Shown piece after piece: positions 30,870-32,948 of a DNA stretch of 41,879 bases (position 1 is its first letter; every line of letters begins with the position of its first letter). Made by a program: the position numbers and the translations under genes. The stretch is from Patellaria atrata CBS 101060 (taxonomy: Eukaryota): positions 296,020 through 337,898 of the forward strand of contig MU006094.1 in the NCBI GenBank assembly GCA_010093705.1. The letters are read 5' to 3'. The notes below the pieces were generated by a model. That model was not told where the DNA came from. It was given only the letters and a program-made list of their open reading frames with translations, and made no database searches.

Positions 30870-31748
30870 TCATGGATTGAATGGTAAGCTTTCCTGTCCT
30901 TCAGGTTGCTTCCATGTGAACCCTTCAGGCACTTCCACAGCCTTCTCCTTTAGCCACCCTTGCACATGCTCCCAGTCCACACATTTGTGCATCGCGTTCG
31001 AGTTAGGCGTGGGATTTTGGTGGTCGCGCACCCAGTTGTACGTGACCAACCCCACGTCAAAATTGCACATCAGGCTTTGTCGAATGTAGTCGACGCAGTG
31101 CTCGTAATGCCTTTCGTACATCTCCGGAATCTCCTCCACTTTCTTCAGCACGTTCGGGAAGTATGACCGATGGTGGTCTTGCCAGATGTAGTGCAAACAG
31201 TGCAGTTGGTGGGTACCAACTGTTGCGGCGATGTATCCGCCGCCAGCCTCAGCTGGGAACTGGGCCGCGGTGCGTAGAGTATGATTCACGCGTACCATAT
31301 CGGAAGCTGAAACCGCAATCATTCCATACTGCATTATGGAATGCCAGGCATCTTCTACCGCAGGGGAGGGTGGGCCCTTGAAAGGAGATTCATACCAGAG
31401 GGACCCGTTAAACCGGTTCTCAATATATGGTCGATCGGCAAGTGCTTCGTTAACAGGCGCTGAACATGGTTAATCGATGGCATGATTGATCTGGAACATT
31501 CGGGGGTTCTTACAATAGTAATTATATCTCTCCCAGCATTGTCGTCCTATTTGCCCTCTGCTAAGGACAAGGATGATCGAAAGGATCCCGATTGCAAGTA
31601 AACTCACAACGTGAGCTATCCAGTGGAATAAACTGTGGGATGTTTGGATGTTTTGGTATTCTTCGCTTTCCTCGCTTTTGAGTTCATTAATAGAGGTTGG
31701 TGAACTTGATCGATCGGAAATCGGGGTATACTGTATTCGAGATGGCAT
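30870..31748 (-). CDS. DUF3328/UstYa-family oxidase (fungal RiPP macrocyclase type), 274 aa
   Basis: Intron 31460..31513 joins a TM-containing exon to SPFKGPPSPAVEDAW...THQLHCLHYIW...RHYEHCVDYIRQSLMCNFD...HKCVDWE, giving two HxxHC motifs. Confidence 0.95.
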
Positions 31749-32452
31749 TTCTGATAACTGAAGCTGACTGCATCAATTAAGAGAAGTCATTCGTAATCAA
31801 AGTAATTGATGATATGGGAGTTATACTTATAAGACTGTAGGAAATTTTTAGAGAGCCCTTGAAGAAGACTGATATGAGGAGTTGAAAAGGTAGATACGCG
31901 CAAGAGTGAAAAGAAACCCAGTAGACCTAACTTGTCAGTGTCAAAGTCTATCAAATATACCCCCGCTGCGTGCGTCATGAGGTGGCCAAGCGACGATAGT
32001 GGTTGGACGGGGTATTTACATGCGAGTTAAGCCATTTTATTGCTGCATACCGTTGATTGAGGTACGGTTCTGGCGGAGGAGATCCTGTACGGATAAGACA
32101 GCGTCCCCAAGTGCCTTTCAGTCGCACAGTATATTGATTGTCCCCTGATCCGACCAATAAGAAAACACTTAAACAGGCCATCTCAAGGATTTAGATGATA
32201 CTGTTTGCAATAATCATGAGTCTTTTGGGTGTTTGGTCCGACCTTCTACTTCTACGGGATCCGAGATCTGCGACAGGGATTTTAACGAGTTCTGATAATG
32301 AGGTTGCTCTAGTTGATGGCCAGATATAAATGACTTCTGGAATACCACTACGATATCCCTCTCAGTCATTTCAGAAGTCCTTCAACACTTACCATAGCTG
32401 CCTCAATAACCTCTGGCTTCCATCCCTAAAATCACACAAATCTGTACTCAAC
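31749..32452. promoter_or_regulatory. Divergent intergenic/promoter region between the DUF3328 gene and the precursor gene
   Basis: Head-to-head genes 704 bp apart. TATAAA at 32325-32330. Confidence 0.6.
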
Positions 32453-32948
32453 ATGAAGTCCATCCTCATAGTGTCTGCTCTCATTGCAATGGGAATCGCT
32501 GCTCCAGTCGCTAAGACCACCAGTACGTCCTCTACAGCGAATATCAATGCGGTGATAAAAGCTAACATTTGAAGACTTCGAGGCAGATTCATTGCTTCAG
32601 GTCAGCAAAGACGAATCTTCTTATGCCACCAGGGACACATTCGAAGCAGACGCCCTCCTCCAAGTCAGCAAGGATGCATCTTCCTACGTCGACAAGCGTA
32701 GCAACTTCGAAGCTGATCCTTTGCTTGACGTAGCAAAGGGTGCAAAATCTTCCTACTTCGAAGCAGACCCTCTTCTTCAAGTCAGCAAGGATGCATCCTC
32801 CTATGCCGAAAGGAATACCTTCGAAGCGGACCCCTTGCTAGACGTTGGAGATGTCGCTGAATCTTCTTACGCTACGAAGCGGGGAAACTTCGAAGCGGAT
32901 GGTTTGCTCCAAGTTGACAAGACCGACTCATCATACGCTAGCGAGTAA
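32453..32948 (+). CDS. Secreted Kex2-processed repeat protein; putative RiPP (dikaritin-type) precursor, 147 aa
   Basis: Signal peptide MKSILIVSALIAMGIA|APVA, intron 32523..32574 (GTACGT...GCTAAC...AAG), then six FEADxLLxV...SSY repeats separated by TR/KR/ER/KR-containing linkers. Confidence 0.9.

What the first reader, a model, noticed from the sequence alone, without database searches (positions are those of the whole stretch)
30870..32948. Candidate new fungal RiPP system: DUF3328 oxidase head-to-head with a six-repeat secreted precursor
Seen: a complete 274-aa TM-anchored DUF3328 protein (HQLHC and HYEHC) lies 704 bp from a divergent gene that the ORF track splits in two. Removing intron 32523..32574 gives a signal peptide plus six Tyr-terminated repeats with KR sites. 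Established: a signal-peptide/Kex2 repeat precursor with an UstYa/DUF3328 oxidase and an MFS transporter is the architecture of dikaritin clusters (ustiloxin, phomopsin, asperipin-2a), where Tyr is oxidatively cross-linked. The repeat FEADxLL(Q/D)V..(.)..SSY matches none of the cores I know (YAIG/YVIG, YVIPID, FYYTGY). Inference: it encodes an undescribed cyclic peptide family.
Basis: partly seen in the sequence, partly recalled or inferred. Interest (0 to 1): 0.93.

Follow-up and report, generated by a model that had tools for sequence, protein, structure and literature searches.

The report
Conserved fungal peptide precursor–oxidase gene pair
A small secreted protein made of six copies of a 16-17-residue motif lies head-to-head with a copper-oxidase-type (UstYa/DUF3328) gene, and the same pair recurs in many fungi, so it is probably an uncharacterised family of enzyme-modified secreted peptides.

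Summary
A 274-aa, membrane-anchored UstYa/DUF3328 gene (30870-31748, minus) lies 704 bp from a divergent two-exon gene (32453-32948, plus). That gene encodes a signal peptide and six FEADxLLxV(x4-5)SSY units.

New here: this is not a one-off. In 24 metagenome loci fetched with the UstYa protein, all 15 with at least 1.9 kb upstream carry the same kind of repeat gene, on the opposite strand, with the same exon/intron layout. The other nine are cut too short to tell. In four named fungi the two genes have consecutive locus tags or accessions.

The unit is F-E-[A/T]-D-P-[M/L]-L-x-[V/I]-x5-S-S-Y-A, mostly 17 residues, and is usually preceded by KR or RR. The window's copy has only two KR sites. 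MFS transporters are often linked, but not always.

Full-text motif searches found no description of the family. Six of its proteins are absent from the largest census of Kex2-processed repeat proteins.

I read it as an uncharacterised UstYa-dependent RiPP family. Product chemistry, including cyclisation, is untested, and no RNA evidence for the splice was available. Whether it is a divergent relative of the epichloecyclin gigA/gigB system could not be settled.

The parts
30870..31459 (-). UstYa/DUF3328 gene, exon 2 with stop codon. It encodes the lumenal catalytic domain carrying HQLHC and HYEHC.
   Evidence: PF11807 at E=3.6e-43. The joined exons equal the 274-aa protein P0008.
31460..31513 (-). 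Intron of the UstYa gene (54 nt, GTAAGA...CAG).
   Evidence: It is the only GT..AG removal that reproduces P0008 exactly.
31514..31748 (-). UstYa gene, exon 1: N-terminal tail and the single hydrophobic helix (residues 40-60).
31749..32452 (.). 704-bp region between the two divergent start codons. I presume it is a shared bidirectional promoter.
   Evidence: Coordinates. Promoter function is inferred and was not tested.
32453..32522 (+). Precursor exon 1: signal-peptide-like N-terminus (23 codons plus 1 base).
   Evidence: Homologous genes have the same kind of exon. Annotated homologues start the same way.
32523..32574 (+). Precursor intron (52 nt, phase 1; GTACGT...CTAAC...AAG).
   Evidence: Intron position and the AG|AC-TTC acceptor context are conserved in homologous loci. 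There is no RNA evidence.
32575..32948 (+). Precursor exon 2: six repeat units and the stop codon. Units lie at 32577-32624, 32640-32687, 32706-32756, 32757-32804, 32820-32870 and 32889-32936. KR sites lie at 32694-32699 and 32877-32882.
   Evidence: The unit profile hits this ORF at E=1.3e-53 with 6 domains, but the profile includes these units.
28137..29690 (+). MFS transporter gene (approximate bounds, several exons), next to the 3' end of the UstYa gene.
   Evidence: PF07690 at E=9.7e-27. Homologues lie beside the pair in L001, L018, L020, L021 and L023, on either side of it.
25975..27384 (+). Second MFS transporter gene (approximate bounds).
   Evidence: PF07690 at E=1.9e-28 and 2.6e-08. 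Homologues lie near the pair in L001, L012 and L013, and near the UstYa gene in L007.
34020..35848 (+). Thiamine-pyrophosphate enzyme gene downstream of the precursor. It is conserved there only in the closest relatives. Whether it belongs to the system is open.
   Evidence: Pfam TPP_enzyme_N, _M and _C. It has the same position in L001, L004 and L008.

Best explanation
The two divergent genes are a substrate-enzyme cassette for a ribosomally made, post-translationally modified secreted peptide (a RiPP).

Proposed pathway:
1. The precursor enters the ER through its signal peptide.
2. The UstYa/DUF3328 protein is anchored by one N-terminal helix, with its HxxHC...HxxHC domain in the lumen. Characterised relatives use that motif as a binuclear copper, O2-dependent centre. 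I propose it oxidatively modifies each 16-17-residue unit. The invariant residues (Phe1, Asp4, Leu7, Val/Ile9, Ser-Ser-Tyr at 15-17) are recognition and reaction sites. The invariant Tyr is the likeliest reaction site.
3. A Kex2-type protease cuts at the dibasic sites that precede most units in the family. This releases peptides of about 20 residues, which may be trimmed further.
4. The neighbouring MFS transporters may export the product or protect the producer.

Shown here: the gene models, the UstYa family membership, the repeat unit and its purifying selection, and conserved head-to-head linkage across many lineages.

Inferred: that the enzyme acts on the precursor, the cellular location, the Kex2 cleavage and any cyclisation.
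For: 1. Family and motifs. PF11807 at E=3.6e-43, and both HxxHC motifs are present.

2. Linkage in metagenome DNA. One search matched 69 stretches; 25 encode a relative, giving 24 loci.
- A unit profile found an FE[A/T]D...SSY repeat ORF on the opposite strand in 14 loci. A pattern search added L005. That makes 15 of 24.
- By subtracting coordinates, the repeat ORF lies about 830-1760 nt upstream of the UstYa match.
- All 15 loci with at least 1.9 kb of upstream DNA have the repeat gene.
- The other 9 have only 10-1188 nt upstream.
- The 15 loci hold about 9 distinct precursor sequences.
- No other ORF in the window plus loci (322,577 bases) reached E<1; the next best was 3.6.

3. Same gene structure. 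A 23-25-codon signal exon is followed by a 51-69-nt phase-1 intron that ends just before the first Phe codon. My script modelled this in 10 loci and in the window. It produced no model for L001, L008, L022 or L023.

4. Named genomes with neighbouring tags or accessions:
- Cudoniella acicularis, G7Y89_g2820 and g2821.
- Moelleriella libera, AAL_02372 and AAL_02371.
- Hypoxylon sp. CI-4A, OTB09043 and OTB09044.
- Cytospora mali var. pyri, VP1G_05565 and VP1G_05566.
- Elaphomyces granulatus, accessions two apart.
- In six further named species and two unnamed pairs, the two proteins report the same longest-contig length. This is weak evidence.

5. Unit conservation. 186 units were found in 96 of 104 sequences.
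- Counts out of 186: Phe1 180, Asp4 184, Leu7 185, Val/Ile9 186, Ser16 186, Tyr17 181, Ala18 166.
- The Phe-to-Tyr length is 17 in 153 of 186 units.
- Arg sits three residues before Phe1 in 123 of 186.
- The pattern I used restricts some positions, so these counts are partly constrained by it.

6. Selection in the window. At the 10 invariant positions across 6 copies there are only synonymous differences.

7. Transporters. An MFS gene lies within about 5 kb in 10 of the 15 pair loci, on either side of the pair.

8. Enzymology. DUF3328 proteins are membrane-anchored, lumenal, homodimeric, binuclear-copper, O2-dependent enzymes. The cyclase AprY behaves likewise (PMC12435403, abstract and passages).
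Against: - There is no expression or splice evidence. The only runs holding the stretch are DNA contigs.
- No product is known.
- In this window only 2 of 5 junctions are dibasic, so Kex2 alone cannot release all six units.
- The unit, about 20 residues and conserved along its whole length, is much longer than the 4-9-residue cores of known fungal UstYa-dependent peptides.
- The Tyr has no conserved partner two residues downstream, unlike ustiloxin and phomopsin as I recall them.
- Linkage shows co-inheritance, not catalysis.
- The unit profile was built from the same loci it then detected, so its E-values there hold partly by construction.
- MFS genes are missing near the pair in L004, L005 and L022. 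L008 and L010 are too short to judge.
Confidence: 0.72

Rival explanations
1. It is a diverged member of the already characterised epichloecyclin class. On this reading the UstYa gene is a GigB orthologue and the repeat gene a distant GigA homologue. The chemistry would be GigB-type: the proposed link between Tyr and the N-terminal residue freed by kexin.
For: - GigA has imperfect 27-residue units, each a short core plus a follower peptide, cut at LxKR. It is cyclised by the DUF3328 protein GigB through an invariant Tyr (PMC10540207, section 13 and passages).
- The published cores begin x-N-F-K right after the kexin site. Family units here begin x-N-F-E, and some begin x-N-F-K (P0124, P0168, P0190).
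- The paper's Ophiocordyceps sinensis GigB-like protein is 263 aa. An O. sinensis protein that is 71% identical to the window's UstYa, P0024, is also 263 aa.
Against: - It occurs nowhere in the six frames of the window plus 24 loci, 322,577 bases.
- No Epichloe or Aspergillus protein is among the 113 UstYa hits, although the paper reports Aspergillus GigB-like proteins 60-63% identical to GigB.
- No O. sinensis protein is among the 62 precursor hits.
- No S8 peptidase (kexB) or SET-domain (gigC) ORF is in the window. All 68 ORFs of at least 110 aa were scanned.
- Here the Tyr is at unit position 17, not directly after the Pro.
- I could not obtain the GigA or GigB sequences, so the direct comparison was not made.
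Confidence: 0.2
2. The repeat protein is an ordinary Kex2-processed repeat protein that gives unmodified linear secreted peptides, pheromone- or signal-like. The UstYa neighbour would act on something else.
For: - In the census of 7878 KEPs, only 22% have a DUF3328 gene within 15 genes (PMC7329392, abstract and passages).
- The whole unit is conserved across fungal classes, as for a receptor ligand.
- UstYa relatives also work on non-ribosomal peptides (PMC12435403).
Against: Strict head-to-head adjacency was found in 15 of 15 informative loci and in four named genomes. It persists while the other neighbours change. That is hard to explain without a functional tie.
Confidence: 0.06
3. The repeat protein is not cut into peptides. 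It would be a secreted acidic repeat protein that the UstYa enzyme modifies in place (for example by hydroxylation), or a partner or regulator of the enzyme.
For: In this window, and in the closest relatives L001 and L008, several junctions lack dibasic sites. DUF3328 chemistry includes plain hydroxylation.
Against: In most of the family each unit is preceded by KR or RR: Arg three residues before Phe1 in 123 of 186 units, Lys or Arg four before in 117 of 186. Genes end within 0-3 residues of the last SSYA. Unit number varies from 2 to 6, and differs between near-identical loci (L012 has 3, L013 has 4). These features fit a polyprotein of released units.
Confidence: 0.05

Closest known systems
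Dikaritin clusters (ustiloxin ustA/ustYa/ustYb, phomopsin, asperipin-2a)
   Same: A signal-peptide precursor with repeated Tyr-containing units and dibasic sites, an adjacent PF11807 UstYa-family enzyme with two HxxHC motifs, and a transporter nearby. Like asperipin-2a as described in PMC12048977 (section 21), there is a single UstYa gene and no tyrosinase or methyltransferase.
   Different: The conserved unit is 17-18 residues long and conserved end to end. The Tyr lies at the C-terminal end of the unit and has no conserved residue two positions downstream. Dibasic sites are incomplete in this copy. No product is known.
Epichloecyclin cluster gigA-gigB-gigC-kexB of Epichloe festucae (PMC10540207)
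   Same: Long repeat units (27 residues there, about 21-27 here). There is an invariant Tyr, one DUF3328 enzyme, an x-N-F start right after the kexin site, and a conserved non-core part of the unit.
   Different: The published core pattern is absent here. The window has no kexB or SET-domain gene. The Tyr position differs.
Kex2-processed repeat proteins (KEPs; PMC7329392, PMC6339444)
   Same: A secreted polyprotein of repeated peptides separated by KR or RR.
   Different: Six members of this family from surveyed strains are not in the held copy of that census (Table S2). Family members often have only 2-3 units. The window's gene was not returned as a protein, so it appears to be unannotated.
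DUF3328 enzymes of the cyclochlorotine cluster (CctO, CctP2, CctR)
   Same: The same protein family. A Talaromyces islandicus protein that UniProt names 'Cyclochlorotine biosynthesis protein O' (P0043) is 58% identical to the window's enzyme. It nests inside the clade that holds the precursor-linked enzymes.
   Different: Those enzymes act on a non-ribosomal cyclic peptide. I could not verify that P0043 is the experimentally studied cctO, because the same name is also given to proteins of Madurella, Stachybotrys and Cytospora. I also could not check whether a repeat gene lies beside it.

Membership tests
UstYa / DUF3328 (PF11807) | Match to the Pfam model above its gathering score | tested here: met
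   148.4 bits against a cut-off of 25, E=3.6e-43, on exon 2.
UstYa / DUF3328 (PF11807) | HxxHC(x)nHxxHC motif, the copper site in CctR (PMC12435403) | tested here: met
   HQLHC at 162-166 and HYEHC at 196-200. The His and Cys are invariant in 17 aligned relatives.
UstYa / DUF3328 (PF11807) | Single N-terminal membrane helix with a lumenal C-terminal domain | tested here: inconclusive
   A hydrophobic stretch lies at residues 40-60. No topology predictor was available, and orientation was not tested.
UstYa / DUF3328 (PF11807) | Copper- and O2-dependent activity as a disulfide-linked dimer | not testable with these tools
   This needs biochemistry.
Dikaritin-type RiPP cluster | Precursor with a signal peptide and repeated cores, each flanked by Kex2 sites | tested here: inconclusive
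   A signal-like N-terminus and six repeats are present. KR is found at only 2 of 5 junctions in the window. Dibasic sites are the rule in the wider family.
Dikaritin-type RiPP cluster | UstYa homologue clustered with the precursor | tested here: met
   They lie 704 bp apart, head to head. The arrangement is conserved in 15 of 15 informative loci.
Dikaritin-type RiPP cluster | Tyr side-chain ether cross-link giving a macrocycle | not testable with these tools
   Tyr is nearly invariant, 181 of 186 units. The chemistry needs mass spectrometry and NMR.
Epichloecyclin (GigA/GigB) class | Core of the type [I/P]-[N/G]-F-K-x-P-Y-[T/R] in each repeat | tested here: not met
   The pattern is absent from the window, the 24 loci and the 233 session proteins.
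Epichloecyclin (GigA/GigB) class | Enzyme orthologous to GigB | tested here: inconclusive
   GigB could not be fetched. For: the equal length (263 aa) of the two O. sinensis proteins. Against: no Epichloe or Aspergillus protein among the hits.
Epichloecyclin (GigA/GigB) class | kexB (S8 peptidase) in the cluster; the paper finds it in all 12 clusters it compares | tested here: not met
   No S8 or SET domain in any of the 68 ORFs of at least 110 aa in the window, nor in the ORFs scanned from 11 loci.

The most novel reading that the evidence does not exclude
The pair is an ancient, widely kept module of filamentous ascomycetes. It would make a copper-oxidase-matured peptide of about 20 residues and fixed length. 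One form is a large macrocycle closed between the invariant Tyr17 and the N-terminus freed by Kex2. Another is a modification at the invariant Ser-Ser-Tyr. The peptide would act as a conserved extracellular signal rather than a lineage-specific toxin. The epichloecyclin GigB enzyme and the CctO-named enzymes would then be offshoots of this older module. The end-to-end conservation of the unit hints at this. The unit x-N-F-E-T-D-P-M-L-Q-V-G-E-K-A-A-S-S-Y-A-E is nearly identical in Cytospora, Xylaria, Hypoxylon, Hymenoscyphus and the lichen fungus Letrouitia. The enzyme is 70-78% identical across fungal classes.
Probability: 0.15. Interest if true: 0.85.

Novelty: new member of a known kind. Interest (0 to 1): 0.66.

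Why it matters
Few fungal UstYa-dependent peptide classes have a known product: ustiloxins, phomopsins, asperipin-2a, victorin and epichloecyclins. Surveys keep finding UstYa genes whose precursor is 'missing' (PMC12048977, section 22).

This work defines a precursor family that annotation and the main repeat-protein census largely miss. The genes are small, contain an intron, and often have only 2-3 units. The family has a strict two-gene core and a sharply defined 17-residue unit. That gives a minimal, directly testable enzyme-substrate pair for DUF3328 copper chemistry.

The family occurs in plant pathogens (Cytospora, Sclerotinia-related fungi, Monilinia, Clarireedia), insect pathogens (Moelleriella, Metarhizium) and lichen fungi. 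A product with a biological role would therefore interest several fields.

Tried and rejected
- RNA evidence. The look-up of sequencing runs (kind rna) listed no RNA holder. The two runs listed are probably DNA and near-identical to the window. Laid on 25500-37500 they showed no joints. Nothing follows for expression or splicing.
- Own genome. No whole genome is held for this window.
- Complex prediction (UstYa dimer plus two units) was not available.
- Earlier findings. Searches by place, sequence and words gave nothing on this family.
- Pfam on the precursor. Only sub-threshold chance matches appeared: MREG, GSIII_N, Di19_C.
- Tandem Repeats Finder does not see the array.
- Papers. The motif strings and six locus tags gave no relevant paper. 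A search for PISL3812, cctN and cctO gave only noise.
- GigA and GigB sequences. I looked in PMC10540207 (text and supplement), PMC9233826 and PMC7317419 (text and supplement). The sequences are only in figures. I tried reading two published gigB screening primers as protein. The result was ambiguous and I dropped it.
- ESM Atlas on the UstYa protein returned only other UstYa clusters.
- Lichen clans. I considered whether this family supplies the 'missing precursor' of lichen RiPP clans R1 and R2 (PMC12048977). Their accessory genes (tyrosinase and O-methyltransferase; GNAT) differ from what lies beside the pair here. No link can be claimed.
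Full report
**What is there**

The UstYa gene lies on the minus strand. Exon 1 (31748..31514) and exon 2 (31459..30870), after removal of a 54-nt GT..AG intron, translate exactly to a 274-aa database protein. That protein is P0008, named as a hypothetical protein of Patellaria atrata CBS 101060. Exon 2 matches Pfam PF11807 (UstYa) at E=3.6e-43. 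The protein has HQLHC at 162-166 and HYEHC at 196-200, and one strongly hydrophobic stretch at residues 40-60.

The precursor starts 704 bp away on the plus strand, with its ATG at 32453.
- Exon 1 encodes a 23-residue hydrophobic N-terminus.
- Removing 32523..32574 (GTACGT donor, CTAAC branch site, AAG acceptor) joins it in frame to six units of the form FEADxLLxV(x4-5)SSY, followed by a stop at 32946-32948.
- Only two junctions between units are KR. The others read TRD, nothing, and ERN.
- An alternative in-frame acceptor at 32586 exists.

**The repeats are not chance**

At the ten invariant positions of the six copies, nine show synonymous codon variation and none shows a replacement. Tandem Repeats Finder does not see the array as DNA. 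The copies are therefore old and are kept as peptide.

**Relatives of the precursor**

A search with exon 2 found six small proteins with the same unit. They include proteins of Monosporascus ibericus and the lichen fungus Acarospora. A profile of 13 sequences (A2) gave two results:
- 62 proteins at E<=0.001 among the 8000 scored candidates.
- 67 representative clusters among 1.84 billion.

Named sources include Cytospora mali, Xylaria, Hypoxylon, Annulohypoxylon, Biscogniauxia, Rostrohypoxylon, Clarireedia, Cudoniella, Hymenoscyphus, Monilinia, Moelleriella, Metarhizium rileyi and Elaphomyces. The lichen fungi Gyalolechia and Letrouitia are also represented.

The window's own gene was not returned as a protein, so it appears to be unannotated.

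Across 186 units in 96 of 104 sequences the unit is F-E-[A/T]-D-P-[M/L]-L-x-[V/I]-x5-S-S-Y-A.
- It is 17 residues from Phe to Tyr in 153 of 186 units.
- Arg sits three residues before the Phe in 123 of 186 units, and Lys or Arg four residues before in 117.
- Genes end 0-3 residues after the last SSYA.
- My extraction pattern restricts several positions, so the counts are partly constrained by it.

The UstYa enzyme has close relatives. They are 52-78% identical and occur in Dothideomycetes, Sordariomycetes, Leotiomycetes, Eurotiomycetes, Lecanoromycetes and Arthoniomycetes.

With an alignment of 17 of them (A1) I fetched DNA from metagenome contigs. The scan matched 69 stretches. Of these, 25 encode a relative, giving 24 loci.

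Results of the scan for the repeat gene:
- Six-frame pattern scans and a unit profile found an FE[A/T]D...SSY repeat ORF in 14 loci. It lies on the strand opposite the UstYa gene.
- A looser pattern added L005, whose unit is diverged, NFEIDTILDV...SSYA. The total is 15 of 24 loci.
- By subtracting coordinates, the near end of the repeat ORF lies about 830-1760 nt upstream of the UstYa exon-2 match.
- Every locus with at least 1.9 kb of upstream DNA has the gene.
- The nine without it have only 10-1188 nt upstream. For eight of them that is less than the distance seen in their nearest relatives. L024 has no close relative among the loci to compare with.
- No other ORF in the window plus loci reached E<1 with the profile; the next best was 3.6. 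The profile was built from these same loci, so I rely on the direct reading of the sequences as much as on the E-values.
- The 15 loci hold about nine distinct precursor sequences.

The gene structure is shared. A 23-25-codon signal exon is followed by a 51-69-nt phase-1 intron that ends at AG|AC-TTC, directly before the first Phe codon. My script modelled this in 10 loci and in the window, and produced no model for L001, L008, L022 or L023.

In named genomes the two genes carry neighbouring identifiers:
- Cudoniella acicularis, g2820 and g2821.
- Moelleriella libera, AAL_02372 and AAL_02371.
- Hypoxylon sp. CI-4A, OTB09043 and OTB09044.
- Cytospora mali var. pyri, VP1G_05565 and VP1G_05566.
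- Elaphomyces granulatus, accessions two apart.

Six further named species and two unnamed pairs show equal longest-contig lengths for the two proteins. This is weak evidence.

**Other neighbours**

- Transporters. The window has two MFS genes next to the UstYa gene. An MFS gene lies within about 5 kb of the pair in 10 of the 15 pair loci. In some it is on the precursor side and in others on the enzyme side. It is absent in L004, L005 and L022. L008 and L010 are too short to judge.
- TPP enzyme. A thiamine-pyrophosphate enzyme gene follows the precursor only in the window and its closest relatives L001, L004 and L008.
- Other types. L009-L011 and L016 have a BAHD/TRI-type acyltransferase next to the enzyme. 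L022 has a Zn2Cys6 regulator next to the precursor.
- The constant core is therefore the two-gene pair.
- No second UstYa, tyrosinase, methyltransferase, S8 peptidase or SET-domain ORF is present among the 68 ORFs of at least 110 aa in the window.

**Tree of the enzymes**

I built a tree of 40 UstYa proteins chosen by me from the hits; the other hits were left out.
- The 14 enzymes with evidence of linkage are scattered through one 35-row clade that includes the window's enzyme. The other rows were not tested for linkage, so they are not negatives.
- A Talaromyces islandicus protein that UniProt names 'Cyclochlorotine biosynthesis protein O' (P0043, 58% identical) nests inside that clade.
- The same name is also given to proteins of Madurella, Stachybotrys and Cytospora. 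I cannot say that P0043 is the studied cctO.
- The gene tree does not follow the species tree. That suggests old paralogues, losses or transfers. Xylariales carry both an FEAD-type and an FETD-type pair.

**How it probably works**

DUF3328 proteins were recently shown to be membrane-anchored, lumenal, disulfide-linked homodimers with a binuclear copper site in the HxxHC(x)nHxxHC motif. They need O2 and electrons. The asperipin cyclase AprY and a halogenase behave likewise (PMC12435403, abstract and passages).

On that basis I propose the following. The precursor enters the secretory pathway. The enzyme oxidatively modifies each unit. A Kex2-type protease then releases the units at dibasic sites.

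The fixed Phe-to-Tyr distance, and the invariance of both ends of the unit, would fit a ring of fixed size or a two-part recognition-plus-reaction site. That is inference only.

The window's copy, like L001 and L008, has lost several dibasic sites. It may release double units or use another protease.

**Comparison with what is known**

The architecture is that of dikaritin clusters, and the single-enzyme layout resembles asperipin-2a. The unit is much longer than the known cores and matches none of them. Those cores are recalled from memory, not taken from a call.

Searches for a published description:
- Full-text searches for eleven motif strings of this family found nothing relevant.
- Searches for six locus tags found nothing.
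- Six family accessions from strains that the KEP census surveyed are absent from its Table S2 as held here.
- Figures and closed supplements were not searchable, so a description printed only in a figure cannot be excluded.

The closest characterised system in its logic may be the epichloecyclin cluster. It has 27-residue units with a short core and a follower, an invariant Tyr, and one DUF3328 enzyme, GigB (PMC10540207, section 13 and passages).
- For a relationship: units in both systems start x-N-F after the kexin site. The paper's O. sinensis GigB-like protein and my O. sinensis hit P0024 are both 263 aa.
- Against: the published core pattern is absent from everything I hold. No Epichloe or Aspergillus enzyme appears among the hits. 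The kexB and SET genes are missing.
- I could not obtain GigA or GigB to compare directly, so this stays open at about 0.2.

**Verdict**

The reading as a UstYa-dependent peptide system is well supported by conserved linkage. 'Cyclic' and 'undescribed' remain probable but unproven. I class it as a new member of a known kind. It has unusual breadth and an unusually long, fixed-length unit.

Noticed in passing
L012:8536-8745 and L013:8464-8745 (minus strand): Two otherwise near-identical loci differ by one whole repeat unit, 3 versus 4 copies. Unit number changes quickly even where the unit sequence is fixed.
   Followed up: partly
Protein P0121 (Gyalolechia sp., 220 aa): This database gene model fuses the N-terminal part of an MFS transporter to the repeat units. 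It is probably an annotation error caused by the two genes lying side by side. Other models in the family also look mis-built: P0005, P0123, P0126 and P0128 have odd N- or C-terminal extensions.
   Followed up: no
Protein P0043 (Talaromyces islandicus PISL3812_05751): The protein that UniProt names 'Cyclochlorotine biosynthesis protein O' sits inside the clade of precursor-linked UstYa enzymes. If it is the real cctO, an enzyme of a non-ribosomal pathway was recruited from this peptide-linked lineage.
   Followed up: partly
window 34020-35848 (+); L001:6316-8156, L004:5968-7845, L008:2-832: A thiamine-pyrophosphate enzyme gene keeps its place next to the precursor in the three closest relatives, even where the other flank differs (L004). 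It may belong to this branch's cluster or may simply reflect local synteny.
   Followed up: partly
window 22758-23174 (-); L001:15114-15869, L007:7854-8237, L012:3327-3707, L013:3255-3635, L018:13150-13920, L021:13909-14958, L023:2044-2736: A 'fungal rhodopsin domain' (PF20684) membrane protein recurs within a few kb of the pair in several lineages.
   Followed up: no
window 32951-32991: A 19-bp unit is repeated twice directly after the precursor's stop codon.
   Followed up: no
window 41389-41859 (+): An open frame with DDE_3 endonuclease and HTH_33 domains, a transposase fragment, runs off the end of the window.
   Followed up: no
window 36765-37283 (+): An AA9 lytic polysaccharide monooxygenase exon, another copper enzyme, lies 3.8 kb downstream of the precursor. 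It is not conserved beside the pair in the loci examined.
   Followed up: no
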